A stretch of 63,453 nucleotides of DNA, counting the filler, from Kipferlia bialata (taxonomy: Eukaryota): NCBI GenBank assembly GCA_003568945.1. It is 6 parts of 6 records of this genome, joined end to end, with 100 filler letters (N's around TTAATTAATTAA, not from the genome) between each part and the next. Parts side by side here need not be neighbours in the genome. Positions count along the whole stretch, not along the records: positions 52,275 to 63,453 come from BDIP01001272.1; 5 more parts are not named here. One strand, 5' to 3'. The position numbers and the translations under genes are program-made. Every line of letters begins with the position of its first letter. The first letter of the stretch is position 1. A model generated the notes under the pieces. That model was not told the origin of the DNA. It saw only the letters and a program-made list of their open reading frames with translations, and made no database searches. This document shows, in pieces, positions 25,045-63,453 of the stretch.

Positions 25045-25682
25045 GTATGAAAGAGAGAGAGACAGAGACTCACGGTACGGCATAGACTGAAGGTTGGGGA
25101 TAGATTACTACAAATGAAATTGCTGAGTACCTCGTCCAGCTTGTCAAAGTATACTAGTAATGTGTATATATGTTTACCCATATTAATACATATATATACA
25201 TAACATAGAGTTGAGTACCTCGTCCAGCCACAGTGGCTCTGGCAGCTTGTCAAAGTGCAGACCGTGGTCAGAGGGGATGTACCTGCATTAGGGGTGTAGA
25301 CGGAGAGAGAGAGAGAGAGAGAGAGAGAGGTGGTCAAAGTGGAGACCGTGGTCAGAAGGGATGTACCTGTATTAGGGGTGTAGAGAGAGAGAGACATAGG
25401 AAGATATCGTATCGATTGAAACACTAGGTCCTCAAAATATCATACACCTGTATATAGTGTATAGATCTAGTATATGTATTGAAATACTCTGATACCTCTC
25501 AAACACCACTGGCACAGTCCCCTTCTCCTGCATGGGTGCATAGTCAGGGCATGCATCACTCTCTCCCTCTCTCTCTCCCTCTCTCTCAGCCTCTCTCTCT
25601 GCCTCTCCCACTCCAAACTCCATGTAGATGTCCAAGGTAGTGCCTTGGGGGATAGAGCTCCGTCCGTACACGTTGTAGCTGG

Positions 25683-25718
<36 letters not shown>

Positions 25719-27610
25719 TAGATGTCCAGGGTAGTGCCCTGGGGGATGGAGGAACGGCCATACACGTTGTAGCTAGTGTCAGATGGGTATATATACATGA
25801 ATATACATTGACTAAGAGAGGGATAATGAATGCCCATAGTTGTGTGTAGAGGCACTGATGTCCTTCCGTACATGTTGTCCTTAATTAACAAGGTACATAT
25901 ATATGGGGATATACCACATGCCTATATGTATACATACACTGTATATATATACCTATACATACACTGTATATATATACCTATACNNNNNNNNNNNNGTATA
26001 TATATACCTATACATACACTGTATATATATACCTATACATACACTGTATACAGGTTGTATATATTCCATATATACCTAGAGTAACTCTTCCTCTTCCCCT
26101 TGTCCATGTCTGTGGCCAGGGTGTCCAGGGTGATGCCAGGGGGGGTTAGTAGTACGGTTCCTGAGGTCATTATGAGAGGGGGGGAGAGAGAGAGAGAGAG
26201 AGAGTGGCCAGGGTGTCCAGGGTGATGCCAGGGGGGGTTGGCAGTACGGCTCCTGATGATTAACATAGTACATATGAGAGAGAGAGATAGAGAGAGAGAG
26301 ATAGAGAGAGAGAGATAGAGAGAGATAGAAGGGGTGTCCAGGGTGATGCCAGGGGGGTGTCTGAGGTTACATACACACACACATACATGCATAGTCATTA
26401 TGCATTCTCCCACCTGGTGTAACACCAGCACACACCCCCTCCACCTCGCCATACACCTGTGCCTTCTCCTTGGACACACGCCTCAGTCTATGCACCAGAG
26501 GGGTGGTCTAGTATGAGTGTGTATATATATATGAGTATGGCAGTATATATATATGTTATATGGAGAGAGAGAGAGAGAGATTGGCCTTCTCCTTGGACAC
26601 ACGCCTCAGACGGTGGGTGAGGGAAGAGGCCTAAGGGTAAGAGGTATGTATATATACATTATAGAGAGAGAGAGAGACAGATTGGCCTCCTCCTTGGACG
26701 GTGGGTGAAAGTGGAGGCATAGTATCAGATAGTGGAGAGAGAGAGAGAGAGAGAGATGCCTCAGACGGTGGGTGAGCGTAGATGCCTATGGGTCAGATAG
26801 ATATATTGGAGAGAGAGGGAGAGAGAGAGACGCCTCAGACGGTGGGTGAGGGGGGAGGCCTAGTATTAGGGAATGGACAGAGAGACAGGTAAAACCTGAG
26901 GAAGACGGTGTACAAGGCTAAACACACACACGTATATCCATGTGTATATATATACAGACATCTACACTCTCTACCTGGGGTATGTATGGCCTGCCACTGT
27001 CACCCAGGGCACGGACAACAGAGGAGATGGCATCCTGGGAATAAGGGGTGTAGAGGGAGAGAGAGAGAGTACGGACAACAGAGGAGATGGCATCCTGGGA
27101 TTGAGAGAATTAAGGGGTGTAGAGAGAGAGAGAGAGAGAGAGAGCATGCAATATACCTCTATGGTGTCTGTCCTCTTGAGGTTGACTGGCACTGCCTGGC
27201 CACGACAGTAGCTAAGGGTTAAGGGGGTAGGAGACGAGAGAGAGAGAGAAGTCCTACGCATCTTCATACCTGGCGCTGCCTTTCTATTTGCGAGTACCAA
27301 GGGTGTATTAGAAGAGGGAGAGATTAACATATATATAGCACCTGGCGCTCCGCTTGCGAGCTGTCTTTCAATACACATATATATATACATATGTATACTA
27401 TCAACATCTATGTTTATAGTGATATACTTATATATATGAATTAATATGGGTATGGGTATGGGTATAGGGTATACCTGGCGCCCCCCCTTGCGAGCTGCCT
27501 GACTATCTTAGAGTACACTTCCATGTCACCCCCTGCCTCTCCCTCTCTCTCCCCCTCTCCATCTGCCTCTGGTTCAGTGACAGAGGGTGTCACACCCATG
27601 GAGACATCAA
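22861..27610 (-). CDS. Multi-exon fragment resembling the C-terminal ubiquitin-like region of USP47/USP40-type deubiquitinases; both ends missing
   Basis: NPPGITLD, TTLDIYME, GTVPVVFERYIPSD..PEPLWLDESMPYQAIQQMLAQRFGIEDPTTIAIL, VVNWD and TVADLHIHPWQLFYVDS are colinear with my recollection of the USP47 C-terminus; the catalytic domain is not present. Confidence 0.5.
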
Positions 27611-28980: not shown

Positions 28981-29205
28981 TTACTCATCATCATGCAGGC
29001 CAATGGGACATCCCTTCACCCTCTCCCTGTCCTGCCCTCTCCAGGGCTCCTTGCCAGCAGAGGCACCGTTGACAGGGCGCCTACCCCTGTTAGGGCCTGG
29101 TATTAGTAATAATGAAAGGAGAGAGAGAGAGAGAGAGATAAAATTGCCAGCAGAGGCACCGTTGACAGGGCGTCTACCCCTGTTGGGGCCTGGTATTAGT
29201 AGTGT

Positions 29206-29241
<36 letters not shown>

Positions 29242-29433
29242 ATATTGCCAGCAGAGGCACCGTTGACAGGGCGCCTGCCCCTATTGGGTCCTAGGGTCAA
29301 TAATGCATATATATATATGGAGAGAGAGAGAGAATATATATTGCCAGCAGAGGCACCGTTGACAGGGCGCCTACCGCGGTTAGGGCCTACGGTTAGAATT
29401 AGTAAAAATGAAAGGTGTGTGAGAGAGAGACAC

Positions 29434-29465
<32 letters not shown>

Positions 29466-30283
29466 GTGGAAGCACCGTTGACAGGGCGTCTACCTCTGTT
29501 GGGGCCTGGTATTAGTGATAATGAAAGGAGAGAGAGAGAGAGAGAAAAAAAAAATGAAGGCACCGATATCAGGACCTCTACCCCTGTTGGGGCCTAGAGT
29601 TAGAATTAGTATATAAGGAGAGAGAGAGAGAGAATATTGCCAGCAGAGGCACCGTTGACAGGGCGCCTACCGCGGTTAGGGCCTGACGTTAATAATGCAT
29701 ATATATATAGAGAGAGAGAGAGATAATATTGCCAGCAGAGGCACCGTTGACAGGGCGTCTACCCCTGTTGGGGCCTACGGTTAGAAAGAGTCAATAAGGA
29801 GAGAGAGAGAGAAATATTACTGCCAGCAGAGGCACCGTTGACAGGGCGTCTACCCCTGTTTGGGCCTGATGTTATTATATATATATGGAGACAAAGAGAC
29901 TCGATCTACCTCTGTTGGGGCCTGAGGTTAGAATTAGTATATAAGGAGAGAGAGAGAGAGAGAGAGAGAATATTGCCAGCAGAGGCACCGTTGACAGGGC
30001 GCCTGCCTCTGTTGGGGCCTGGTATTAGTATATATATAGATAATGTATAGAGAGCGAGAGAGAGAGAAGTGGAGGCACCGTTGACAGGGCGTCTACCCCT
30101 GTTAGGGCCTACGGTTAGAAATAGTCTATAAAGAGAGAGAGAGAGAGAAAACATTGCCGCGGTTAGGGCCTACGGTTAGAATTAGTATGTAAGGAGAGAG
30201 GCAGAGAGAATATATATATATATTGCCAGCAGAGGCATCGTTAACAGGGCTTCTACCGCGGCTAGGGCCTGGTATTAGTATAA

Positions 30284-30334
<51 letters not shown>

Positions 30335-30402
30335 TAGAACTGGAGGCACCGTTGACAGGGCGTCTACCACGGATAGGGCCTAGTAAAAGTATACGCATAT
30401 AT

Positions 30403-45386: not shown

Positions 45387-45439
<53 letters not shown>

Positions 45440-45470
45440 CATGTTTCCAAATACCTTCCCTCACCTCCAG

Positions 45471-48400
45471 GTCTCATCCTGCTTGACACCGATGTGCCGC
45501 AGTGTTCCCCTCAGATCAGCCTGGGTATGTCGCTGGAGGGTGTGGGTGGGGCGCAGTGCTGTGCCTGGTTGGGCACAGGCAACCTCCTGATAGCCAAGGG
45601 CATGCCCGGCCCAGTCATATCCTCATACGCGCTCAATGCATCCAACCTCAAGAGCAATGTGGTCGGAAGGAGGCACAAGCGCAACCAGGACAGGTGGGGT
45701 CCAGAGACATATCCCATATCCTTCTCATCATGTGAACAAGGCTTCTTATCTCAGGGAACGCCGCAGTGCCCTGAGTCGCTCTGCCTCTCCCAACGATGGG
45801 TCAGACCCCTCCCCCCTGTCCCTCAACGGCAGCGGCAAGACAGACATACCAGGGCGCGTGCCCACCATGACATACAGCGTGAACCCCAGCTACTACACCC
45901 TCTCCTCGTCCGACCCCTTCGGGTACCCCCACGCCATGGCCACCACAGACGACGGGAGGCGCTTCTGTGTGCTGCAGGACGGGTCTGTCTTCTTCTGGGA
46001 CGTGGAGATGCCGGACTGCGAGTTTGTGTTTGACCCTGAGATGCGGGACCGACAGCAGATGGTGGCCCAGTTCATGCCAGCATCAGTCAGTGTGGCACCT
46101 ATCCTGGCCCTGGGTGAGTGCTATGATACATGTATATAGATAGGGTGCTGTATTATGGTAGAGCCATTCTCATTCTGATACTCACCCCAGGCAGTGGGTC
46201 AGGGGCCGTGCTGACTCTGGACACAAGGTAGGCAGACGCATACCCAGCTGCTTGGAATTGGTATCGAGCTACCCCAACTGTCATATTCAAGTCAAGCCAC
46301 CTACTGTGCCCCTAACCCCCAGAGAGAGTACGTCCAGTGGCCACCGCATCATTGAGCTGGACCGCAGTGCCCTGCCCCTCGACAACAGCCGTGTAGAGTC
46401 GAGTCTGTCCATGTCTAGACGGCAGTCTCTGACCCTGGGGCAGGGGTCTGCCACCGACAACCCCTTCTCCTATGCCACTGGTGGGTATGACCACTACACC
46501 CAGATGCAGGGGGGCATGGAGAGCAGTGACCACAGGGCAGCCAGGATGGGAGCACCTCCCCTGGCCGCACTGGGGATTGACTCGCTGCGCACCCCCTCGG
46601 GCACAGCAGTGAATGGCAGGATGAGGGGTGTCAGTGGGAGGAATAGTGCTAGTAGGAGCCCCGAGGCAGTCAAGGACTCGACATCGGGAGGCGGCATGTT
46701 TGGAACAGGGGAGGGTAGTAGGGGCAAGTGCGGTGTGTCTGCCATCGGGTTCAGTCCATTTCTACCCCACTGCATAGGGGTGGGAGACACACAGGGCACG
46801 GTTAGGGTGTACGACCTCAGAAACACCACCACACACGTACATGCATACACCCCCCACTCGGGCCGTGTGACCGCCGTGACCTTCTCCCCCTCCCACCCCT
46901 CCGTCCTCTCTTCTGCTGCTGTTGGCACCCCTGCCTCTGCGGCTCTGCTTAGGATGGGACCCGAGCCTGGTGTGCTGTGGCAGCACCACTCTGCCCCCGA
47001 GGTGCACTCCTCCCTAGGGGGGTCCACCCAGAGCACTAGGCTGGGGGGCGGCAGTGTCAATGGGTTTGGGATGGACGGGATGCCCCTGGCCCTGGCCTTC
47101 AGCAGCAGCAGGCCCCTATCAGTGTATGCAGTCGATGACTCGGGTTGCGTCGCATACAAGGTGTGTATCTGACTAGTACATATACCTATGCATCCACTCC
47201 TCCCTCTCACCCCCAGGGTCTCAACATGACACCTGTCAAGGGATCCCCCGCCGCTCTCTTCTCCCCCTCCTCCCCAGTCAAGGCTAGACCCAAACACGAG
47301 GAGCCAGGCAGGCGCTTCTTCTCTGACCTCATGGCCCAGCCTGGCCACTCAGTCTCATCCACCGCCCTGATGCAGCATGTGCACAGACAGCAGAAGAGGG
47401 CAGGCAGAGGGGGGAGGGTGGACGAGAGACAGGTATGGGGCAGCGTCATGTTGTATAGTTGGTACTCTCTCTCACATATACCCCCTGTCTCACCCAGGTT
47501 GTCAACACCCTTGGGTCTCTGGCGAGGAATGGCAGGGAGGACGGGAGCAGGGCAGAGCTACACGCCCTGCATAGCGCAATAGGCCTCAGAGACTTTGTAG
47601 AGGCCACTGAGGTATACCATATAGAATTGTCAGGTATCTCATAGAACTAGAGCGATTGTATACCCTTCCATCATGTCTGACCCCTCAGGTTGTGAGGCGC
47701 ACTGTCAAGGCCGCCCTATCTGGACAGGACTACACCACTGCATTCAGGTTCCTGGATATCTACGACCAGTATGTGGGAGCCCTGCAGAGAAAGGAGAGGT
47801 GGGTCCTTGTGTGTCTGAGGGTGTAGTTACGGGTGTATCAAGGGATATTGTGATGTCTTCCAGATCCCCTGTCATCTATCTGACCGATAGGCCTGAGTTC
47901 AACCCCCATGTGTCCATCCCCCTCTGGCTGGGAAAGCTAGGCCCGGCATGCCCAGTGGGTGAGTCGATGCAAGGACTAATACCGATGCTGTGTGATATAT
48001 GTGTTTTCTACACTACTATACACGCTCTAACCCAGGCCTTCCGCAGAGCCTTGTGTGTGTCCCTCTGACCCCCACGAGGCTGGAGATCAAGGCCCTGTCC
48101 CACCACGCAGACATTGTCAGAGAGCTCAACGAGGAGCTCTTTGAACCAGGTGTCGAGCCCAGCAGACAGGCCCTAGCTGATGCAGAGCACCAGAGGGCCA
48201 TGAGGGTGCTGGCCCTTGAGAAGGACTGCACCTCGATGCTCAACATGCCAACCAGAGAGAGGAGTGTCACCAATGATATACTGGCCGATCTCCTCTCCCT
48301 CAGACTGGATGTCATGGGCGACTTTGCAGGTAGGGCTGTATGTGGGTCTAGGGTCACTGTCTTATGTACCAGTTTTCCTCACCGCTTACCCTTCAGGCAC

Positions 48401-49604
48401 GGTTGACCTCAGCCGCCAGATTGTGGCGCCCTTCATCTCCACTGCCAAGGACGGGTCCCACAAGGTGATGCCCAGGGTCAACGGCCTCCTCCCCGTCCTT
48501 TCCCGTCTCCTAGTCCCCTCCATCTTCTGCCATGCCTCCCTCCCTTCCTCCATTGTGTCCCGCATAGCTGCTGTCGATGGGTTCGATGCCGGCCTAGCCC
48601 TTGAGCTTGTCGAGTGCCGCACATCCTCCCCCTCAGTCCTAGGCAGGGCCGGAGACGCAGAGATAGACGCATGCTCCCAGAGGGTCAGTGGCCGTACGGA
48701 CTCAGACGCTGCCTCAGACGGTGACCTGTTCCGGCTTGTCACCCAGGACCCCCTCTCCCTCCTCAGCCAGCTGGACCTGATAGGCAATGTGAGCATGGGC
48801 CTTGTGAATGAGGGATCACCCTTTGCGGTAGAGAGGGCACTCCCTCCCACGTCTGGGGGTGACTCCAGTGAGAAGTACATCCTGCCTCAGGGCATGCTGC
48901 TCACAGTGATATACGCCAGTGTGTGTGCGGGGCACTTCTCGACTGCCATTGGGCAGATAGACCAGCATGCCGAGGCCATCCAGAGACAGATGCTGCAGAA
49001 GGGGAGGGAGAGGGAGCGGGAGAGGGTGGACGCCGGCCAGTTCTGCCGGTCCACCGACACAATCATCCACACCGCCTCTGCCTCTGCCTCAGGCCCCATG
49101 CAGACTGGTTCGTTCTCTGCGCTGCTGGGTCTCTTCTGCTCCCAGGTGGTGTGGCCCAGACTCATCACCCACCTCAAGTCGGCAGTGTCAGTGTCTGAGC
49201 AGGCAGACGCAGCCCTGGGAGACCTCCTGCTGGCTCTCTCCAGTCCCGTCCTGTCCAGTGCCGGTAGACCATCCCTCCCATCAGCCGGAGACGACATCAG
49301 AGCCCTTCTAGGGTCCATGGGGGAGAGTGTGAGACTCGACCTTGTTGACAGAGACGCCGCCCCTGCTGCGTCCCCCTCTGCCCTCGGTAGGATGGTGAGT
49401 GGGGAGAGGATGGGCGGCAGGGAGGGGAGAGAGGGGTCGAGGAAGTCCAGCCTGGCCAGGGCAGACAGGCTCAAGGCCCTGTGCGGCAGGGCCCTGCAGC
49501 GCCAGAGGAGTGACTCCGACTGGGCCAAGGTGTGTCCTGTCATGAGACAGATCCTGGCCATGCTGGAGAGTGTGTCGGAGCATGCAGGCCTCAGCATGAG
49601 GTAG
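45471..49604 (+). CDS. WD40-repeat protein with C-terminal helical region, 5'-truncated
   Basis: LQDGSVFFWDV; ILALGSGSGAVLTLDTR; VSAIGFSPFLPHCIGVGDTQGTVRVYDLR; HSGRVTAVTFSPSHPSVLSSA; long final exon ending at TAG 49604. Confidence 0.75.
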
Positions 49605-49863
49605 AGGTGGCTGTGGGGTGTTGTGGGTTTGGAGTGTTTGTGTCTGTTCGTATGCGTTGTGTTTTGTCGGAGAACTGTGTTATTGCCTATTTGCACCAGA
49701 GTTGTGGGATGATTCAATAGATGACCGTCTCAACAGCAGTGTACTCAACTCATACTAAGGTTGGAGGAGGTCGTGTTCTATGTATTCCATTATTGAAAAC
49801 ACAACGGGCTTGGAGGCACTTCACCAACCTAATACACGTCTGGACGGCGATATATTACACTCC

Positions 49864-51092
49864 TTACAGCCTGTATCCGTGCTCTGCCACACTGAGTCTC
49901 AGGGCCAATGGGACCTTGGGTGTGTCTGTGTCCCCAGCTGTGACTGCATGGAGGGCAGCATGGAGGGGGGACTCAACAGGGACATGGATGGACACGTCAG
50001 GGGGCAGGAGGGGGGGCTCTGCCTGAGGGGTCTCCTCTGCCTTGGCGGCGTCTCTCTCTCTCTCCACCCTGGGCCGCCTGTCTCTCTCCTCCTTCTTGCC
50101 TCTCCCTCCCAGTCTTAGAGCAGGCATCAGCCGCTGCCGCACAGACACTACCTCCACAAACACCTCTGGGACACCATCCTCAGGGGGGCCTGCCACCGAC
50201 ACAGTGACTGTGGAGTACCAGTTAGAGGAGGAAGGGGTGGTAGAGAGGGGAGAGCTAACCTCACCCTCTACCACTGTATCAGCCACCTCACCCGCCTCCT
50301 TCACCTCCTCGCTCTCCTTGGCCACAGACACAGACACCCTCATGCGCCCTGCCACGTACCCCTCTCCCTCTCCCTCTCCCTCTGCCTCTGGAACACCTTC
50401 GACACTAGATATGTCGACCTCCTTGCTAGCTATGCGGCCAGTCTCGGTGTCTGTCTCCGTCCACCCTGCGGCCTGCCTGAGACCATCCCACACATACCCA
50501 CCCTCAGACTCGGCCTCATCCCCTGACCCAAACACAGTACCCGGCATAAGGGAGACGGACAGAGCAGTGTGCAACGCGAGATAGTCCTCAACAAGCCCCT
50601 GACTGCTGAAGGGCTTTGGGGCCACGACCCCCTTGACGGGTAGGCCTAGAGAGGACTTGTACACCTGAAATCCGTGCACTGAAGTGGCGTCTACTGGCCA
50701 CCACACGCCCTCTCCCTCCTTGTCCACTGGGACCTCCCTGTCCTCCTCCTCATCCCCTCCCTCCTCGTCGTCCATGATCTCACCCTCCCCCTCTGTGTTG
50801 AGTAGGTACCGCTGTGCACAGGGTGACTCCAGAGACAGCAGGAACAGCTCCCCACTCACGCCATGCTTCCTGGTCAGAAGACAGAACCCGGCACTGGGGT
50901 TGAGGGCCAGGTCCACCCCGACTGGCACCCCTCCCTCTGTGTCTGTGGCTGTGCCCTCCACCTGCAGACACCTGGCAACAAGGGTGTCAAGAGGCAGGTT
51001 GGTGGAGAGAGTGTGGCGCAACACTGCCCCTGGAAGGATGGCATCTCCGGTGAGAGGGGTGACAAAGGTAGGGGGGGCCTCGAAGGACACCC
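49864..51092 (-). CDS. Hypothetical acidic protein (one long exon; start exon not resolved)
   Basis: 408-codon ORF, GC-rich, preceded by the acceptor cttacactcag; convergent with the WD40 gene. Confidence 0.6.
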
Positions 51093-51663
51093 TGAGTGTA
51101 AGGGATTATTACCAATGATATGTAAGAGTGTCATATACAATGCCAATAGAACAGATGACAGGTGGAGTTGTATCGAAAGTGAGCTAGCCCTCCTTCACTT
51201 CACAAGAGCATCACTGAGGGAAACCAACCTGCTAAGCATGGACGAGTAGAACCTATTCACAATAGTGAGAGCCCTCAGGCGCTTCCGGACGAATATCCAG
51301 AGGACATAAGAGACAGCCACGACTGAGATGAGAAGTAGCACAGAATGCCGTTGTGTGGCCGATTCCAAATCCACATAGCATGGGAACAGTGACAGAGACA
51401 TACAGACTACTAGACACTGACCAACCTGAAAATGACAATAGCCCAACGATCATCCCAATATTAGACCAGGAGTTGACCTTGACCTCGATCATAAACCCGC
51501 CGAATAATGGCCTGCACTGGTGCTATAAGCTTACACAGATAAGCTATGCAGAAGAGGAGCGGCGGCGACCGAGTACTCAGCGCAGATTCTAAGGGTCTAG
51601 GGCATGCCAAAAATCCTCTGATGTCTAATTTCGGAGGTTGCCTCTCTCTTCATACCATACAAG

Positions 51664-52047
51664 ATGGCAGGACTCTTGGATATGCTGAGGCGCCTTCGCC
51701 GTGGGCCCAAGGAGCTCCGCATTCTGATGCTGGGCCTTGACAACGCCGGCAAGACCACCCTCCTGCGCCGTCTGTCGAATGAGGACGTGACGTGTGTGAT
51801 GCCCACCCAGGGCTTCAACGTCAAGTCGGTGCAGACCAAGGGGTTCAGGCTGAATGTGTGGGACATTGGCGGTCAGAAGACCATCCGCCCCTACTGGCGC
51901 AACTACTTTGAGTCCACCGACGCCCTCATCTACGTGGTTGACTCTGCCGCCAGAAGGAGGCTGGAGGAGTCAAGTGTTGAGCTGTCCATCCTGCTGGACG
52001 AGCAGCAGCTGGCCGGGGTGCCCCTCCTTGTGTTCGCCAACAAGCAG
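51664..52047 (+). CDS. ARL3: ADP-ribosylation factor-like GTPase 3, first exon (cut by contig end)
   Basis: [60 protein letters not shown], followed by a GT donor. Confidence 0.92.
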
Positions 52048-52123
52048 GTACGCCTGGTTAGGCCTACATAGGGAATCGGACATGTTTCACAATGATCTTC
52101 AGTATCACTCTCTTTCCACTTGC

Positions 52124-52171
<48 letters not shown>

Positions 52172-52692
52172 ACANNNNNNNNNNNNNNNNNNNNNNNNNN
52201 NNNNNNNNNNNNNNNNNNTTAATTAATTAANNNNNNNNNNNNNNNNNNNNNNNNNNNNNNNNNNNNNNNNNNNNATACACATCGAGTGTGCTGCAATTTC
52301 ACTCTAGCCCTTTCCAGGTTGTCGGGTATATGATGTTCGCAGGTTTGGTTTGTATGGCCCCTACTGCCACATGTGGGCCCCGGTGGAGAACGGTTCATAT
52401 GCACGCAAAAATATAATCTTTCTATAATATATGGTAGGGATATAGATATGTAAGGATAGCTAGAGCCCGAGTCTCACACACTAGTCTGGACCATAGCTGT
52501 CACGACTTGATGCTACACTTCAACGCATGTATAATATATTCGCTGCTGGCCCAGCCTTGCTGGGTAACCTATCAAGGATGTTTCCAGGAGACGACACGCG
52601 ATGTACTGAGTGGCATTCAGTGTGTATAGAACACTGCCAGTAATGCCATCTCCAACAACTGTAAGTGTCTCACGGCAACGTAGATATGCACC

Positions 52693-53578
52693 CTAAGCGG
52701 TGGATATCCTCTCATCCAGCATCTCTAGGTCAATGAATGCTACTACTAGGTTCCTACCATAGAAGAATAGCATGGTGGTGGGGTTGATCATGCACGGGCT
52801 GTACACACTGTTGACTGTCACTCCATCCGAGGCGGTACGACCCAATATCATAGCGTCTGCTGGTAATGAGCAGCCAGATATTGGATCAAGGACCTCGATT
52901 ACTCCCATGTATGGTGGGTCCCACTCCCCGATGAAGATGAATACTGCGTTTTGGAGTGTCGCATATATGCCACTGAAATTACAGTCTGTGACTATTGAAG
53001 AGAAGCCTGAGTGTAGAGACAGAGACAGCAGGTAGTCCTGGGACTGAGTGTAAGCAACGCAGAATAGGGAATCTCTGCACACGAAGTAGTCCGATAAGTA
53101 GCTGTTGTCGAATGCTTCTGGCACGGTGTAGGGCAGTTGCTGCCAAGTATCCGTGTCCGGATCAAACACCCAACAGTCAAGGCAGTGGGTGACAGATGTG
53201 TCATAAACCCTTGCATATCCAGGCATAGGTCTCGACGAGACTCTCGTGTATCTACCGGTTTCACCTCCCGCTACAACTAGAGACCCCTCTACACACCCTA
53301 TCGACGAGTTGATACGGGGACATGGCCAAACCTCCCCTTCTTTATGAGGAACCATGCGCCACTCTAAGGTGTCCAGAGATAACACCCACAGGTCAATGCT
53401 CTCCACGATCTCGTCACGGTCTTGACCAGGTGGGTACCTTGTCTCATTGACCCTCGTCACAAGGGAATACACAATCCCACATGTCGATGGCACCAGCCTA
53501 TAGGACTCTCCCCAATCGGGTACTGGCAGCAGTGTCTCGTCCACGGATAGGTCAGGGAGTAGGGTGAGGAGCTTGAGT
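52693..53578 (-). CDS. Kelch-like beta-propeller protein (terminal exon; upstream exon not identified)
   Basis: LWVLSLDTLEWRMV..WPCPRINSSIGCVEGSLVVAGG..DCWVFDPDTDTWQQLP; acceptor ctcactctctag at 53579-53590. Confidence 0.7.
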
Positions 53579-54723
53579 CTAGAGAGTGAGAAGAGGTGAA
53601 GGCGTGGAGTTATGATAGGGAGAGATAAGTATAATATAGTATAAGTATAATAAAGTAATATAGGTATAATATGACATAGTATTACATAGTGTAATACTTT
53701 AAGTTATACTCGGTCTCGAAGCCTGATACATAGAGCTACGAGGAAGCGAAGCCACGTGAACCCAAGAATATTGTAGTAGAACCCAGCTGGGCACTTAACC
53801 ATACATACACGGTCTGATTCAGACTGGGTAGCCTTAATTTCTTATCTTATGATTGACTATTAGCAAAATATCGGTACCTGGTGGGGCCAGTGTATTGCAC
53901 CAGGACAGTGTTCAGACCGACTGGATACATCTTCCCACATGTCTCAGTCTCCGCTAGATAGTGCTTGGCCTCTATGTGGAACCATTCGGGGGTAACAAAT
54001 GGTTGTTGCATATGTGGTTATGTCTGCTCTCTGTGTAGAAGAGACTATGTGGACTCCGATATACCACCGAGGGTGGTCCACTTTAGTGAGAGGTATTCTG
54101 TTGAGTGAACAGTGTTCACCATTTGAGGGTTGCAATACGTAGTTTACCTTTATCAGTCGCTAGAGTCGTGATCCACTGTAGTCATTACAGTGTAATGTCT
54201 ACAATTTTGACTGTAGTGTCTCCAGGAGAGGTGATATGTACGCCCTAAAGTGTATAACGCTCTGCTAGCCAACAGCACAATTCTCAGAATCCAATCTGAT
54301 ATTCGAATGTAAGAATACGTATACAGTAAGAAACAAATACATAGTGTCATGACCCGAATATATAGCTAAAGCCCGAGTCACACATACTATACACGCCTAG
54401 TCTGGACCATAACTGACAGGACTGGATGACGGTTACATACACTTCAACGCATATATCATGAATATTCGTTACTGGGTAACCATTTCAATGATGTTCCTCA
54501 CTATGAACTGAGACTGAGTGTCAATTGGTGAGTTTAGACACAACAGGCTGGTACTTAGTATGTCTACACGAAGAAACAGAGTCATTGGCGGTCAATAGTA
54601 TTGACTCAATACCATCTCAACAGCATTGGTAATATATATTGTATCACAAGAGGTAAAGATCTTGTCCACTGTAGAAGCAAACATTGCCACTCCAATTCAG
54701 TGTAACACTCAAAGACTTTAAGC

Positions 54724-55550
54724 CTAAGCCGTAGACACCAATTCATCCACCATCTCGATGTCAATTTCCGCCACAACTATGTTGCTACCGTGTAGAAACA
54801 CCATAGTGGTTGGGTTGATCATCCAAGGGCTGTATACAGAGTATTCGGGGTCCTCGGTGTTAGTATCTAGCACAATCAACTCCTCTGGGAGTGAGTGTCC
54901 AGACACCAGGTCACAAAGAGCAACGGTCTGCTCGTATGGCGGGTCACAATTGTGACGGAAAGTGCAGATGGCGTCCTGTAACCTACAGGACTCCTGACGG
55001 TTCACACCCCAGTTACTATAAGGGGTTTCTGTGACTCTGTAAGCGAATCCGCCAGACAGGGAAAGCGACTCAAGTGTGTATGTGACTGTGCGTAAAGTAG
55101 TGTGCATATAGACTCCCTGTAGATGTAAGTCATTGAGAGACTCTTGTCAAATGTGCTTGGCACGGTGTAGGGCAGTTGCTGCCAGGTATCCGTGTCAGGA
55201 TCAAACTCCCAACAGTCATAGCAACGGGTGCGGTGGATCTTGTAACACCGAGGACGCCCTGGTTTTTGCCTCCAGGTGTGACCTGTAACCCCACCTGCTA
55301 GAACTAGAGACCTCTCTACACACCCTGCGAGCGTTGCTACACGATACTGATACTGATTCTACACGTGGACAGGGCCAGTCCTCTCCTTCTTTGTGAGGTA
55401 CCATGCGCCACTCTAAGGTGTCTAGGGATAACACCCACAAGTCAAGGCCCTCTACGGTCCTGTCTGTCTCTGCAAGAGGCGTATACTTGGTCACCACTGT
55501 TCTTACTACAAGAGAATACACAATGCCACACATTGATGCAACCAGCGTAA
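54724..55550 (-). pseudogene. Frameshifted tandem paralogue of the kelch-like gene
   Basis: Same motifs (LWVLSLDTLEWRMVPHKEGE, FDPDTDTWQQLPYTVP, VYSPWMINPTTM) split by a 22-nt insertion at 55337-55365 and a second frameshift near 55075; flanks are also duplicated (52458-52530 vs 54363-54452). Confidence 0.75.
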
Positions 55551-56266
55551 ATAAGCCAACCTAATACTGTCTGATCCATTTAAAATTGCTAACATTGCTA
55601 ACACTCCTATGACCTTGATAATTGCACTACTAGTACCTTGCAGGGTCACTGTACTGTAGCAGTACAGTGTTCAGACCGACAGAGTGGAGCATGACCAGTC
55701 TATCCACGTCCACAGAGTGAGTTGCCACTATGCTTAACCATTCAGGCGTTGCCAGTGGTTCCATTGAAACAATATGCCTAAGAAGGGTGGAGAAGACATA
55801 CTAGGAGTGTCATCCATGCACGGATTTCGCTGTAGGGCTGGCCTACAGTTGAGGGTTTCGCTTGGCTCTGAGGGTATATATGTGTTCACCCGACGATAAC
55901 AATACAGTTTGTCCCGCACTACAGTACTGTCGATGATTGACTATTTGTGCTAGAATAGAAAAAGACTATTTGCCAAGACGGCAAACGTGGCACTCCAAAC
56001 TGTATATTCAGCTATGATAGAAGTACACGCAACAGCAACTCCCTACATCACTGCAGGTCTAATACAGTGTATTGGACTAATACACCCATGACGTCTGTCA
56101 CTCCATCGCATCAACACAAGTATGTATAGTCTCCTAGTACATTCTCTCCATGTCCACCACACCCATGACATCAGTGTCTCCATCGCATATCTACCATCAA
56201 AAATGGTATCTAGTATCCACACATGTATCATGAACGGGTAGAGACACTCCCACATCCTTATGCGAT

Positions 56267-57726
56267 CTAGTACATTCTCTCCATGTCCACCACACCCATG
56301 ACGTCAGTGTCTCCATCGCATATCTGCCTCATCTTGCCAGCCATGTCTCTAGCCACCGACATAGGACTGAGGTTAGTATATATATACAATACTACTATAG
56401 TACATATGTATATATATAGTATATATAGTATATATGAATGAATTCATATACATTACAGTATGTATATATCTGCCTCATCTTGCCAGCCATGTCTCTTGCG
56501 ACGGACATAGGGCTAGGAGTCAGAGTGTGTAGTTGATGTACACACACACACACACACACACACACATTTATATATATATATATATATATATACATATATA
56601 TATACACACACATATATATATATAGAGAGAGAGAAGTATACCAGCCATGTCTGTGGTCACACACATGGGGCTATGGTTAGTGTATACATATACATATGCA
56701 TATATTCTAATAGTCAAAGGTAGAGAGAGGGCAGAGTGATATAGTATTTATATATACTATAGTGCATATAATGTTATATATATAGAGAGAGAGGTAGAGG
56801 TAGAGAGAGGGCAGTGTTGCAGCCCTATCTCTGCCCCGTACGTGTTTAATCTACACACTCACATACATAGATAGATAGAGAGAGATATAGACATGGAGAG
56901 AGAGAGGGAGAGGGATTAATTATTCCGTCAGTCATGTTACTGGCAACAGACACGGGACTCGGAGTCAGTATATTATTATTAACGGAGAGAGAGAGATGCA
57001 GAGAGAGAAACATTGGAAACTATGCGTCTGTGTGTATACCTTGTTATGGCCGAGCAGTGTTGAGTGATGTAGACATTTTCCATAACTGTACATCTTATAG
57101 AAGAGGCCGTAAGAATACAGTATTTCAATGAATAGATGAACATCAATACCTAGTGATGGCTGAGCAGTGTGGAGTGATGTACATGTTGTCCTTAACTGTA
57201 CAACTTGTCGTATGCCCGTAAGAGTATTGTACTAGTGTGTGTTGTCTAGTTCTTGTCTATACCTAGTGATGGCTGAGCAGTGTGGAGTGATGTACACATT
57301 GTCCATGCCCCACAGAGAGTCAGAGGGCGGGAGGGGCTCAGTCTCAAAGACATCTTGAAGTAAGGGTGCAGAGAGAGAGACAGAGAGAGAGAGAGGGAAT
57401 ATACGGGTGTGGAGGGAGAGAGCCTATGACGGGCTCGGTTTAAACACATCTTGAAACAAGGGGAAATCCGGAAGATACGGAGACTGGTAGAAGTGGGTAA
57501 GTAGCTGGTATATCGAAGGTATATACATTTATACCTAACGCTGCAAATGACAGGTGACCCCTCTGCATGACTGTCTTGAGGCCCTCTGTGTCTACAACTG
57601 GACCCCTAATAATAAGAAATGATACACATCTATACAGGAAGTGAGAGAGAGAGCAAATGACTACCTTGAGACCCTAAGTGTCCACAACTGGACCCCTAGT
57701 GTAAGATTGATACAGATTTATACATA

Positions 57727-57764
<38 letters not shown>

Positions 57765-60700
57765 AAGGTGACCTCTTCGCATGTCTGCCCCTCTTGACAC
57801 CAACACCACCAGTTCCTATATATACATATACTAGCTCCATATATCAATGTGTATAAATACATTATCCATATTACACCATAATAATTCACCTTGTTGCATT
57901 GATCCCTTTGGCAGCAGGGACAGACTTCCATATGCGCTCGTAATTACATACAACATAATATGTAAAAAAATGCAAATCTATTACTATAATACCATACCTA
58001 AATGCAAATGCATTGATGGGGCATGCTCCCTTTGGCAACAACTTAGTATCCATATACACCAATATTGATACTAAGTATCAAGTATACATACCCATATTGA
58101 TACATGTGTAAATATATACTTTATTGTACCTTGAAGCGTTGATGAGGCACGCCCCCTTTGGCAGCAGGGACAGTGTACGCTCATTGAGGAGGTGCCTGGG
58201 TATGAGAGAGAACACATTTAGTTAATACCCACAATAATAGAGATAGAGTGTGTGGGGGAAGAAGCAGGGACAGTGGACGCTCATTGAGGAGGTGTCTAGT
58301 GTAAGTATATTCTGTAGAATATATTAACAAATCTACATACAGTGTAGATAGATGATAACTGGCTGAGTGACAGGGTGCTCTCATTATGGAGGTGCATAGA
58401 CTCAGAGACACTATGATATACTAGTAAATACAGAAAAGCAGAGACTCAATGACTAACTAAGTGAGGAAGCCAGAGGTTACTATGATATATGAACTATGAG
58501 GCTATAGAGAGTGTGTGTGGGCGAGAACCTTGTCTCAGGTGTGAAAAGGGACTAGAGAGAGAGAGAGAGAGAGTACCTTGTCTCAGGAGTCAGGGGGCAC
58601 AGGACAATGAGTACGTCAGTGTCCTTAGGGTGAAAAAGAAAGGCAGAGACATAGAGAGAGATCAATCTGGACGAGAGCAAAGTGGGAAATGCGGGAGAGA
58701 GAGACATCAACTGTATCTCACTGGTTGATGGTTGATTGATTGAAAGAGCAGACACGCGTATCTCTTTAACGTACAAGTGTTAGTTAGTATTGACCAAAAG
58801 TGAGCCGATCTAATATATGTACGTCATACCCCTAGGAACTGCTCTACAAAATATATAAGATATACTATATATATAATAATAGTAGTAATGTAATGTAAAG
58901 ATAATGTAAAGAGTATGTACATCATACCCCTAGGAACTGCTCTAATGTGGCATGTATTTTTTTCAAGAGATGTCTGGATGTCCTTGTCCAGACAGGCATA
59001 GACACAGAGTCACAGTATATGTATATATATACATTCATACATATATATATATGTACGTCATACCCCTAGGAACTGCTCTCATGTGGCGTGTATCTTGAGT
59101 GGGGGTCTGGATGTCCGTGTCCATACAGCCATATTGACACACAAATAGTATATATACATACCTTTACATATACTATACATTATATATACATATGGATCAT
59201 ACCCCTAGGAATTGGTCTAGTGTGGCATGTATCTTCAAGGGGTGTCTGGATGTCCTTGTCCATACAGCCACGTTGGGCACGAAGGCCTTGGCGGCATCGT
59301 GACAATGTCTACAGTCAGATACTATGTATATCTATATATATAGAGATATATATGCTAATAGGTTGCCATATTTTGACAGCCACGGTGGGCATGTAGGCCT
59401 TGGCGGCATCATGGCAATGCCTAAGATGAACAGAAGTACATATATATATATATAGGTATATATATATTTATATATGTTGCTGTATAATGACAGACACATT
59501 GGGCATGTAGCCTTTGGCAGCATCATGGCAATGTCTATAGTGAATGGATATACACACACATAGATGGAGAGAAAGAGAGAAGGAGATAGAAGGTTAACTG
59601 ACATGGATGCAGTGGCAGCTTTGTGAATGTGTCTAAACCATTAGAGTGTACCAATTTTAGTATATAACTGTATATACAAATAGTGGTATATAAAAATTCA
59701 TGGATATTTGAAATAGTAGTATTACCTAGCTAGCTTCCCGTATCCCAGGAACCCCACCCTTACTCCATAGGTGTGAGAGACAGGGGACCACAGGGCCTGG
59801 AGGGTGAGATACCAGATGGTGTGAATATATATACGCTCTCTCAGTATATATATATATATATGTCCCCACCTCTTCCTTGTGCACCCGGTAAATATTGTGC
59901 TTATATATATTAATTAGTATAGTCATATAGTGCATATATTACATATATATACGTATGTGTATATACCTCCTCCTGTTGCACCCTGTATGTGTGTGCATGT
60001 GTGATGTATCTCAGCACATTGAACAGTACATACCCATATACATGTTATTCATATATACTAATACATANNNNNNNNNNACAGTACATACCCATATACATGT
60101 TATTCATATATACTAATACATATATATATATAATGCGTGGTGTATGCGTTCTCTCTCTATGTATATAGTAATGGTTACCTCCTCCTGTTGCACTCTGTAC
60201 GTATGTGCGTGGGTGATGTATCTCAGTACATTGAACAGCACATACTCACTCATCTTCTGACCCCTCTGGTCATCGGTCAGCCTGGGTATTAAGGGTGTAG
60301 TGGGAGAGATTAAGGGTCTAGCGTGGGGGGGGAGAGAGAGGTAAACTCTATACACACCCAGTATATTACACATGTGTGTATATATATACATACACTATAC
60401 CTAATAAGGGGTATCCGCTCATTCCCCCTCTGCTTGGGTATGCAGTGTCCAACAGACACAAGGTCACTACAGGATTTATGTAAATGTATATATATTATAT
60501 TATATATAGATATAGATATAGACATTACCTTATTAAAGGTATTCTATCGTTCCCTCTCTGCTTTGGTATGCAGTGTGCCACAGACACTAGGTGGTCAACA
60601 CCGGCACCGAAGGAGAAGATGGCCTGGGTTAGGGGTGTAGAGGGAGAGAGAGAGAGAAAGAGAGACTGCATATCAGAAAGAGAATATGGAAGAATACAAA

Positions 60701-61519
60701 TGGTCTAGAGGTAAACGGATACAAGGTGGTCAACACCTGCACCGAAGGAGAAGATGGCCTAGCGGGAGATAATATATATATATATATATATATTGTATAT
60801 ACAATGATATGTATATAGACAGAGATATATGAGGAATGACCGACACAAGGTGGTCAACACCTGCACCAAAGGAGAAGATGGCCTACTATTAAGGCTGGGG
60901 AAGCAAATACACACATAGAGTAAATGTATAGATATGTATATAGAGAGAGATATAAGAGGAATGACAGACACAAGGTGGTCAACACCTGCACCGAAGGAGA
61001 AGATGGCCTGGTGATAAGTGTGTATAAGTATATATATAAGTATATAGTAAACCCTTGATAGGTATATAGACATAGATATAAGAGGAATGACAGACACAAA
61101 TATATAGTGGGCAACACTTGCCCCAAAGGAGAAGATGGCCTACTAATAAGGTTGCAGAGGTATAGATGCAAAAGTATATATATGAATAGGAAGAAATATA
61201 GGAATAGAAGACTTAGTGGTCAACACCTGCCCCAAAGGAGAAGATGGCCTGGGATTAAGGTTTCGGAAGTATACGTGTAAAAATATAGAAGTATATAAGG
61301 ATTGAGAGAGAGGAAGAGAGGACACAAAGGAGAAGATGGCCCAGGGTAAAGGGGGAGAAAGAGAAGACAGTCAAGGGAATAATAGTGTAAACGGTTGAGA
61401 CAGAGGATAACCGATATCAATTGATACTAAACCTTGCATGTCTGAGTGGGTGTGCTCCTCAGGAACCATAAGAGAAAGATATCACATGTGGAGTAACTAC
61501 AATACAATACAGACATACA

Positions 61520-61557
<38 letters not shown>

Positions 61558-62165
61558 AAATACATATATACCTTGCATGTCTGAGGGGGTATGCTCCTGA
61601 GGAACCTTGGGAAGGTGCCCCACACAATGACAAAATCTGACAGTAAGAGGGAGGATACAATAGTATATGTATACACATATAATATACATGTATACATATA
61701 TATATATAGAGAGACATGCACCTAGGAATGGTGCCCCACACAATGACATATATACATATGTAGAATACCTGTGTCTGCTGGGCATGTGTCTCTGTCACAC
61801 ATGGATACCCACGTATACATATGTAATTGATTTGTACAATGAGAAAGAGACGGAGAGAGAGACGGATAGAGAGAGAGAGATACCTGTGTCTGCTGGGCAT
61901 GTGTCTGTGTCAGAAGTGTATAGACACCATATACAGTATATATATGAAAATATAAAATATTATGGTATACAATATACCTGTGTCTGCTGGGCATGTGTCT
62001 GTGTCACACATTGAGACAGATGTATATATATTTATGTATATATATTGAACTGCAGAAAGAGAGAGAGAGAGAGAGAAAGAGAGACAGAGAGAGCGAGAGA
62101 GAGAGATACCTGGGTCTGCTGGGCATGTGTCAGTGTCAGAAGTGTATATACACCATATACAGTAC

Positions 62166-62198
<33 letters not shown>

Positions 62199-63046
62199 CA
62201 AATATATATATATATAATTATACTCAATTCACCTGTGTCTGCTGGGCATGTGTCTGTGTCACACATGGAGACAGAGGGCCTAAAGTGCAGGTCCTAGATG
62301 GTTAGAGGGTATTATGTACATAACGTATACTATAAGGAAAATACATATATGAAGAGTAAGATGGCTTAAAGTCCAGCTCCTTACCAAAAGGTAAGAGAAT
62401 ATGTATTGATTTGAGTAAGAATACATCCATAGTTCAGAATGTCTGAGTGCAATCAAAAGAGGGGGAGGAAGACAGTACATTCACCAACTCTCCACCCAGC
62501 GCCATATGCCTTACACAAGCTTCACTATGGATACATACAATGCATACCTGCAACTGTTGCTCCAGTCTACCGATGAACCTCTGCATGTATTGACCTAGTG
62601 TAAGGGTACAGTAATAAGTGTATTATTATATGGATATGACTGTATTGGAACAATTCTTGGCTTTCATTGCACCTCTATTTATTACTACGCACTTCTTACA
62701 AGAGGGGGAGAGGGGAGAGATGAGTCACTAGTCGGCAACTCTATTCATATATATATAGAGAGAGAAAGAAACTGGAACACAGACAACACTCTCGTCCCAC
62801 ATGTCTGGTACCCAAGGAGCTGTGGGTACATACATAATATACATATTAGTCTCATGTATACTCATACATATTGTGCCCCATATATATTTACATATCCACC
62901 CACCTGGCACGCCCTGACCTATGCGTCAACGCACACAATATAAGTCAGGTATATATAACAATACATATAGAATATGAATTGGTATATACTACATATACAG
63001 TCACAGCCACCCACCTGGCACTCCTTGTCCTATGGGTGTGGATGAC
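56267..63046 (-). CDS. D-2-hydroxyacid dehydrogenase, glyoxylate/hydroxypyruvate reductase A (GhrA/YcdW)-like; 5' exons uncertain
   Basis: DFVIVWG / AIFSFGAGVDHL..IPLIR / LTDDQRGQKMSEYVL / VGFLGYGKLA / DVLIVLCPLTPETR / HLLNERTLSLLPKGACLINASR / GPVVD / DVFETEPLPPSDSLWGMDNVYITPHCSAIT / ..GVVDMERMY*, colinear with E. coli GhrA. Confidence 0.88.
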
Positions 63047-63453
63047 TGAGGGTGAGACAGATAGGGATATGGATACATATACACGTATATAGATAGAGAG
63101 AGAGGATGACTGTGGGAAGAGAGAGACTGGTATATGGATACAATATATATATAGAGAGAGAGATAGAGAACGGGGACTAAGGGGAGAGGGAGAGACATAT
63201 ATATACATCTAAGTGTTTGGGACTGTAGACTGATAGAGACAGAGGGGGAGAAAGAGAGAGAGGGGGGGGGGGGAATTAATAGTGAACTGTGATTGAAGGA
63301 CAGAGGGAGAGGGAGATGTGAAGAGAAGTGAAAGAGTTGCTGGGGGGGGGGGGGGGGGGGGGGGGAGACACTGAAGTAGAAAAAAGGAAAGGGCGGAGTG
63401 TGTAGGACTCAGGGTGTAAGGGTGGGTGGGGGGACACTAGAGTAGAATGAGAT

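What the first reader, a model, noticed from the sequence alone, without database searches (positions are those of the whole stretch)
58828..61345. Two more nested exons in the GhrA-like gene, with outer halves sharing a variant absent from the inner exon
Exon 60529-60623 versus donor-side echo 60401-60463: over 20 codons there are 9 synonymous differences (including aga/cgg and tta/ctt double changes) and 2 conservative ones (A/G, D/E). Acceptor-side echo 60964-61007 ends with ccttgtgtctgt, exactly the 12 nt that start the donor-side echo, whereas the inner exon reads cctagtgtctgt. The two outer halves therefore look like one former exon. The same geometry holds for exon 59203-59308, where echoes 59376-59420 and 59064-59131 overlap by tggctgt. 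An AG precedes the 60401 echo, so in-frame inclusion as an extra exon is also possible.
Basis: seen in the sequence. Interest (0 to 1): 0.8.

Follow-up and report, generated by a model that had tools for sequence, protein, structure and literature searches.

The report
Retired half-exons flanking working exons
In five gene stretches of this single-celled eukaryote, most exons are flanked by half-copies of themselves that stop near the exon's middle and differ mainly at silent positions, likely leftovers of older working alleles pushed aside by recombination, which would make its introns a fossil record of exon turnover.

Summary
DNA contigs carry several echoes at single-copy depth. Two spliced contigs use only the inner exons and skip the 60401 piece. 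The feature is general. In five echo-rich exon chains, 39 of 54 exons have echoes (102 in all). Upstream echoes copy the acceptor and 5' half, downstream echoes the 3' half and donor (100 of 102), and both stop near 0.47 of exon length. Differences fall at third codon positions in 108 of 154 cases, above the 0.57 maximum of simulated plain tandem duplication. Intron flanks are mostly unalignable, and amino-acid damage hits conserved residues freely. The echoes therefore look like now-dead halves of formerly working, diverged copies. Best mechanism (inferred, about 0.5): recombination between diverged alleles that can pair only in short exons leaves the old half behind. Ten literature searches found no description.

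The parts
56267..63078 (-). 13-exon GhrA-like D-2-hydroxyacid dehydrogenase gene (P0001, 328 aa); annotated first exon uncertain
   Evidence: joined exons equal P0001; PF02826
60529..60623 (-). working exon 5 (95 nt, AG..GT)
   Evidence: spliced contig 11 of X2 matches 60533-60622 with 0 other letters
60401..60463 (-). donor-side echo of exon 5 (3' part plus GT); upstream AG allows a 66-nt in-frame exon 60401-60466, not used in the spliced contig
60715..60758 (-). acceptor-side echo of exon 5 (positions 1-44, 4 synonymous differences)
   Evidence: not in a listed DNA piece
60839..60882 (-). acceptor-side echo of exon 5 (1-44, 4 synonymous differences)
   Evidence: DNA record 7
60964..61007 (-). 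acceptor-side echo of exon 5 (1-44, 2 synonymous differences)
   Evidence: DNA record 8 covers 60980-61500
61107..61139 (-). acceptor-side echo of exon 5 (1-33; damages the conserved GAGVD motif, G87S and D89A)
61216..61248 (-). acceptor-side echo of exon 5 (1-33, 3 synonymous differences)
61327..61340 (-). short acceptor-side echo of exon 5, AG lost
60179..60281 (-). working exon 6
59967..60036 (-). donor-side echo of exon 6 (34-103; 7 of 8 differences synonymous)
59726..59796 (-). working exon 7, no echo detected
59203..59308 (-). working exon 8 (106 nt)
   Evidence: spliced contig 9 of X2
59376..59420 (-). near acceptor-side echo of exon 8 (1-45)
   Evidence: lies in a stretch skipped as repeat
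59490..59534 (-). far acceptor-side echo of exon 8 (1-45)
   Evidence: DNA record 4
59064..59131 (-). near donor-side echo of exon 8 (39-106; contains an in-frame stop)
   Evidence: DNA record 3 spans it and the exon
58928..58998 (-). second donor-side echo of exon 8 (39-106, with a small insertion)
58830..58846 (-). short third donor-side echo of exon 8 (90-106)
60068..60077 (.). 10-N scaffold gap with the same sequence on both sides: an assembly overlap, not an echo

Best explanation
Working exons here are flanked by half-copies of themselves (acceptor plus 5' half upstream, 3' half plus donor downstream) that stop near mid-exon and differ mostly at silent sites; they are likely dead leftovers of diverged alleles, displaced when recombination started inside the exon. 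Shown: geometry, silent excess, unalignable flanks, unselective damage, and skipping in two spliced contigs. Inferred: the short exons are the only stretches where diverged alleles can pair, because the microsatellite-rich introns no longer match. A break near mid-exon leaves about 25-50 nt of homology on each side. An end copies the other allele through the splice site into about 70 nt of unrelated intron, and this tail is joined to the old half-exon instead of being trimmed. The new full exon works and the old half is pushed outward. Misaligned crossovers between an echo and another allele's working exon would then multiply echoes at the same end point and refresh their splice-side part. The spliceosome likely ignores echoes because each has only one splice site (exon-definition-like pairing), or mis-spliced RNA is destroyed.
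For: Polarity 100 of 102; A-end 0.48+/-0.10 and D-start 0.47+/-0.10 of exon length, rho 0.84 and 0.73 with exon length, n=27 each. Third-position share is 108 of 154 for nearest echoes and 161 of 242 for unique variants. Simulated plain duplication gives a mean of 0.46 and a maximum of 0.57. The four chains other than the GhrA-like gene give 96 of 140. Variants on echo lineages are also third-biased, 32 of 58. In a 12-echo array, 9 copies encode the exon's first 8 full codons unchanged while using four Arg codons at one site, and 2 of 28 site pairs show all four gametes. Only 11 of 81 splice-side flanks are clearly homologous, against 89-100% expected at 7-16% divergence. One echo ends exactly at the stop codon. 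Amino-acid changes do not spare conserved residues (8 of 54 vs 25 of 153) and include stops, so echoes are dead now. Some shared echo residues match paralog P0002 (V179M, D200E), consistent with old working states. Silent differences are richer on the splice side (67/339 vs 41/323), first/second-position differences on the mid-exon side (18/674 vs 28/663; Fisher P=0.013). Echo density follows dinucleotide-run content across contigs, with none in 45387-55900. K. bialata is tabulated with Spo11, several Dmc1, Rad52 and PolQ, and without Rad51A or Ku70 (PMC8516963 section 8 and supplement rows). Dmc1 stabilises mismatched triplets (PMC6719624 passages).
Against: No diverged allele was seen. X1 shows no other letters over 58575-61500, and no second Kipferlia isolate appeared among the 120 listed proteins or the 2 metagenome loci. 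The model needs about 15% silent diversity with much faster intron turnover, which is untested. XPF, ERCC1 and Msh3, which would trim tails, are tabulated as present. The narrow midpoint preference is only loosely explained. The splice-side gradient may partly be alignment run-on into spacer. Nearest echoes are less diverged than farthest ones in only 14 of 24 series (13 vs 5 for amino-acid changes). The 11 echoes with homologous flanks have a similar third-position rate (14/111 vs 146/885, P=0.34). Exon chains other than the GhrA-like gene were annotated by hand without RNA.
Confidence: 0.5

Rival explanations
1. Echoes are born as same-chromosome tandem duplications of about 110 nt with one end at a nucleosome dyad over the exon centre (for example an unremoved Okazaki flap). 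The silent excess arises later, from allelic conversion or from indirect selection because echo sequence is sometimes swapped into the working exon.
For: Nearest-echo period median 109 nt, range 58-212, n=56; each echo adds about 101 nt to an intron. AG kept in 50 of 54 and GT in 27 of 28. 11 of 81 echoes have homologous flanks. Duplications up to 100 bp are attributed to flap failure in rad27 yeast (PMC13493898 passage). Okazaki junctions near dyads is recalled, not from a call.
Against: Plain duplication cannot reach the observed third-position share unless the exon's silent rate is about 4x neutral. Conserved residues are not spared, as ongoing selection would predict. Fen1 (3 ids) and Dna2 are tabulated as present. 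The passages read place rad27 insertion peaks in linkers. No nucleosome map exists here.
Confidence: 0.25
2. One reading: a fragment holding the whole exon and both intron ends, from a homolog, was inserted once into a staggered break in the old exon, so the outer halves are one former exon with a short target duplication.
For: Overlap -13 to +14 nt in 17 of 17 two-sided exons, positive in 12; one shared variant in exon 5. Insertion of SPO11 double-cut fragments and inter-homolog joining occur in mouse (bioRxiv 10.1101/2020.06.23.168138 passages).
Against: One-sided exons obey the same midpoint rule and there is no extra coupling between the two ends (P=0.15). 12 of 13 variable overlap sites are not shared. 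Copy numbers are unpaired (6 vs 1 for exon 5). Local inserts in the mouse passages read were inverted.
Confidence: 0.13
3. Echoes are still used, as alternative exons or alternative splice sites in minor transcripts, and purifying selection keeps them synonymous.
For: Splice dinucleotides mostly intact; the 60401-60466 piece is in frame and stop-free.
Against: Both spliced contigs use the inner exons with 0 other letters. Stops, indels and damage to conserved residues occur. Only 4 of 76 decoy-site extensions are both in frame and stop-free.
Confidence: 0.08
4. Assembly artefact from stitching two haplotypes or strains.
For: Short-read draft with an overlap-duplicated N gap at 60068. No single contig spans the region, and echoes 60715-60758 and 59376-59420 are not in listed pieces. 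X1 may be the assembly's own sample, so it is not an independent source.
Against: Contigs of X1 span exon 6, echo 60401 and exon 5 (60164-60630), and echo 59064 with exon 8 (59062-59319), with 0 other letters. Depth is 371-412 on seven of eight listed pieces (574 on the one by the gap), not half depth, and no alternative alleles appear.
Confidence: 0.04

Closest known systems
Tandem genomic duplication route of intron gain (AGGT-containing exonic segment; review PMC3443670, passages read)
   Same: Local duplication leaves exon-like sequence inside an intron without changing the protein.
   Different: Here an existing splice site is duplicated and no new junction appears in the spliced contigs. 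Copies are diverged at silent sites, have foreign flanks and stop at mid-exon.
Junction-spanning tandem repeats such as the human F7 intron 7 VNTR and the sea-urchin case of earlier finding e1-9861148 (both known only from that note)
   Same: Dead tandem copies of an exon-intron junction inside the intron.
   Different: That note reports 43 of 107 silent differences, within what selection on the exon alone gives. Here 191 of 285 are silent and 70% are third-position, with a strict midpoint rule, both polarities and many genes.
Duplications and insertions from SPO11 double cutting and inter-homolog end joining (bioRxiv 10.1101/2020.06.23.168138, passages read)
   Same: Meiotic breaks joined between chromatids or homologs give tandem duplications and inserts of tens to hundreds of bp with microhomology.
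   Different: Those are rare events at PRDM9 hotspots, enriched in ATM-null mice, with no link to exon boundaries or midpoints.
One-sided invasion / synthesis-dependent repair finished by end joining (recalled; one search gave listings only)
   Same: One end copies a homolog and rejoins without homology, duplicating sequence next to the break.
   Different: Known from reporter assays, not as a gene-wide fossil pattern at most exons.
Duplicated mutually exclusive exons
   Same: Neighbouring exon copies diverged at silent sites.
   Different: Echoes have one splice site, are half length, carry stops and are skipped.

Membership tests
GhrA-like D-2-hydroxyacid dehydrogenase (host gene) | 2-Hacid_dh_C domain and closest named relatives called GhrA | tested here: met
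   PF02826; 34-41% identity to listed hits, many named glyoxylate/hydroxypyruvate reductase A
GhrA-like D-2-hydroxyacid dehydrogenase (host gene) | glyoxylate/hydroxypyruvate reductase activity | not testable with these tools
   no assay
Plain junction-spanning tandem duplication with neutral decay | third-position share of differences at or below about 0.5 | tested here: not met
   108 of 154 vs simulated maximum 0.57
Plain junction-spanning tandem duplication with neutral decay | intron flank copied along with the exon part | tested here: not met
   11 of 81 flanks homologous; 4 of 29 near-identical echoes have flank identity >=0.8
Plain junction-spanning tandem duplication with neutral decay | breakpoints spread along the exon | tested here: not met
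   overlap SD 8.0 vs 23.6 under uniform breakpoints, P=1e-5
Intron gain by tandem genomic duplication | a new intron forms between the duplicated copies | tested here: not met
   spliced contigs join only the full inner exons in 58575-61500; other genes had no RNA laid
Single nested insertion with target-site duplication | outer halves coupled at one site and sharing variants | tested here: inconclusive
   P=0.15 beyond the midpoint rule; 1 of 13 variable sites shared
Alternative or mutually exclusive duplicated exons | copy has both splice sites, an intact frame and RNA use | tested here: not met
   one splice site each (60401 excepted), stops present, skipped in contigs
Inter-allelic recombination remnant (best explanation) | echo variants match working exons of other isolates | not testable with these tools
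   no second isolate found
Introner elements | one repeated intron family inserted in many genes | tested here: inconclusive
   echoes are exon-specific, but a shared 3' intron-end motif recurs 18 times (0.04 expected); terminal repeats not examined

The most novel reading that the evidence does not exclude
Kipferlia routinely renews its exons from diverged alleles through a Dmc1-only recombination route that starts at exon centres and swaps in whole new splice-site ends. Much of its intron mass is then a layered record of past alleles, which a reduced spliceosome reads past by strict exon definition even with a dozen intact decoy acceptors.
Probability: 0.3. Interest if true: 0.9.

Novelty: new variant of a known kind. 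Interest (0 to 1): 0.72.

Why it matters
It points to an undescribed way introns grow and turn over, by accumulating retired half-exons with their splice sites (about 101 nt per echo). It bears on whether this fornicate's many introns reflect an ancestral state, as argued in PMC5874029 (passages read), since intron sequence appears to be rewritten fast. It offers a natural test of exon definition in a spliceosome with only 87 of 174 surveyed proteins (PMC6679479 passages): the working acceptor is chosen over five intact near-identical decoys. If the allele model holds, one genome preserves samples of many past alleles and indirect evidence of sex in a lineage without Rad51.

Tried and rejected
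No whole genome is held for this window, so counts come from five hand-picked, echo-rich exon chains and are not a genome-wide rate. No run is on record as RNA; X2 is a guessed RNA run whose contigs skip GT-AG introns. No RNA was obtained for the other chains. Paralog P0002 as echo donor was rejected: 64-65% protein identity, and the echoes encode P0001-like peptides. No second Kipferlia isolate was found (the two loci are 33-36% identical). A frame or nonsense-decay signature in echo spacing was not found: 22 of 76 multiples of three, P=0.47. Two apparent triples (26584-26633, 30072-30131) were dropped as echo-on-echo matches once exons were placed. Of 112 echo hits at score >=12, 10 below 14 were dropped before the counts, and two of those ran against the polarity rule. 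Purine- or pyrimidine-only hits were filtered, and a low-complexity hit at the start of annotated exon 1 was left out. One donor (5233) was chosen with help from an echo. Literature: ten searches; none of the listings describes this pattern, but most subscription papers are not in the library. One supplement file of PMC8516963 had no readable text. Earlier-finding look-ups by place found nothing.

Full report
Setting. The window is a string of short contigs joined by N spacers. The last one, 52275-63453 (11179 nt), has the length of the contig of protein P0001, which its source labels a Kipferlia bialata hypothetical protein with PF02826. Thirteen minus-strand exons with GT-AG introns join to exactly P0001. 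After a 65% paralog (P0002) and a Dysnectes protein (41%), the listed relatives are 34-41% identical and many are named glyoxylate/hydroxypyruvate reductase A.

Observation. Exon 5 has six acceptor-side echoes, five with AG, and exon 8 has two acceptor-side and three donor-side echoes.

Real DNA, skipped in RNA. Contigs of run X1 span 60164-60630 and 59062-59319 (echo plus inner exon) and 60980-61500 with no other letters. Seven of eight listed pieces have depth 371-412, and no variant letters were listed. No piece spans the whole stretch, two echoes lie outside listed pieces, and X1 may be the assembly's own sample. Run X2 is only guessed to be RNA, but its contigs skip GT-AG introns. Contig 11 (depth 8) runs exon 4, exon 5, exon 6, exon 7 and the first 8 letters of inner exon 8, with record positions leaving no room for the 60401 piece. 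Contig 9 (depth 5) runs exon 8, exon 9 and inner exon 10. Contigs drop rare isoforms. A third X2 record matches 60581-60625 with 4 differences and continues as the P0002 paralog (compared by eye).

Generality. I placed exons by hand in four more echo-rich chains, each stop-free over 197-355 codons and without RNA support; two of them may be one gene across an N gap. With the GhrA-like gene, 39 of 54 exons have echoes, 102 at score >=14. The control gave hits in 17 of 2127 exon-foreign-intron pairs at score >=12. All 60 upstream echoes lie in the 5' half and 40 of 42 downstream echoes in the 3' half. Echoes end at 0.48+/-0.10 and start at 0.47+/-0.10 of exon length, scaling with it (rho 0.84 and 0.73). 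AG is kept in 50 of 54 and GT in 27 of 28. The median period is 109 nt. Echo density follows dinucleotide-run content, from 4.8 loci per kb down to none in 45387-55900.

Is it one former exon? In 17 two-sided exons the halves meet within -13 to +14 nt (SD 8.0 vs 23.6 for uniform breakpoints, P=1e-5). Resampling fractional breakpoints among exons gives SD 10.1 (P=0.15), and the two ends are uncorrelated. The nested look follows from a midpoint rule that one-sided exons obey too. A single insertion is possible but not needed.

What the differences say. In the GhrA-like gene 85 of 128 mismatches are at third positions (pS 0.287, pN 0.056), against a composition-matched expectation of 37 of 111 unique variants where 71 were seen. 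Over all chains, nearest echoes give 108 of 154. Simulated duplication with a neutral echo and a selected exon, run through the same aligner, gives a mean of 0.46 and a maximum of 0.57, and needs a silent rate about four times neutral to match. Variants on echo lineages are also biased (32 of 58). A 12-echo array keeps PNRGRRPV in 9 copies while using four Arg codons at one site, and shows recombinant site pairs. Splice-side flanks are only faintly related to the live flank (mean percentile 0.62-0.71; 11 of 81 clearly homologous). Amino-acid changes do not spare conserved residues (8 of 54 vs 25 of 153) and include stops. So echoes diverged while working and then died.

Mechanism (inferred). 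Leftover halves of diverged alleles fit all of this. Repair from an identical sister would leave no trace, while repair from an allele that matches only in a 50-110 nt exon runs into unmatched intron and can strand the old half. Later misaligned crossovers between echo and exon would build arrays with a fixed inner end and refreshed splice-side sequence, as the gradient suggests (possibly inflated by alignment run-on). The organism is tabulated with Spo11, several Dmc1, Rad52 and PolQ but no Rad51A or Ku70 (PMC8516963: passages, section 8 and supplement rows), and Dmc1 tolerates mismatches (PMC6719624 passages). Against: XPF, ERCC1 and Msh3 are present, no diverged allele was observed, the age ordering is weak (14 of 24), and the sharp midpoint preference is loosely explained. 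A nucleosome-dyad replication slip explains the midpoint and period better but not the silent excess or foreign flanks. It is the main rival, and a hybrid (slip at birth, allelic refresh later) is not excluded.

Comparison and novelty. It works like junction-spanning internal duplication but fails that class's expectations on silent share, flank and breakpoint spread. It makes no new intron, unlike the tandem-duplication route of intron gain (PMC3443670 passages), and it is not alternative exon use. The genome paper passages on introns and repeats do not mention it (PMC5874029), and none of the listings of ten searches describes it. Verdict: real, general within this window's echo-rich genes, a new variant of a known kind with an unexplained midpoint rule; interest 0.72.

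Noticed in passing
window 29144-30385 (minus): Array of at least 12 acceptor-side echoes of one terminal exon (29096), nearly all synonymous variants with mosaic flanks; the strongest example of the pattern.
   Followed up: yes
window, 18 places, e.g. 60631-60642, 2669-2680, 25374-25385: A shared 12-nt motif recurs 18 times (0.04 expected); its 7-nt core lies just upstream of 17 of 53 live acceptors. It may be an extended branch-point signal or copied intron ends.
   Followed up: partly
window 56082-56195 (minus): Echoes of the last exon lie beyond the stop codon; the near one ends exactly at the stop, so homology follows the coding boundary as well as splice sites.
   Followed up: partly
window 45387-52174: GC-rich contig whose genes have long exons, short microsatellite-poor introns and no echoes; includes a small GTPase ORF near 51665-52050 that reads like an ARL3-type protein (label recalled, not searched).
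   Followed up: partly
window 52456-53921 and 54362-55680: A diverged tandem duplication of about 2 kb (69-81% identity in pieces), apparently a decayed gene pair.
   Followed up: no
window 3313-9828 (plus): One or two hydrophobic, transporter-like exon chains (MFS-like by eye) rich in echoes, split by a 995-N gap.
   Followed up: partly
window 60068-60077 and 25984-25995: Short N gaps with the same sequence repeated on both sides: unmerged overlaps in the assembly.
   Followed up: no
window 63015-63078: The annotated start of P0001 is low-complexity (MYPYPYL...) and unlike the paralog; the true first exon probably starts elsewhere.
   Followed up: no
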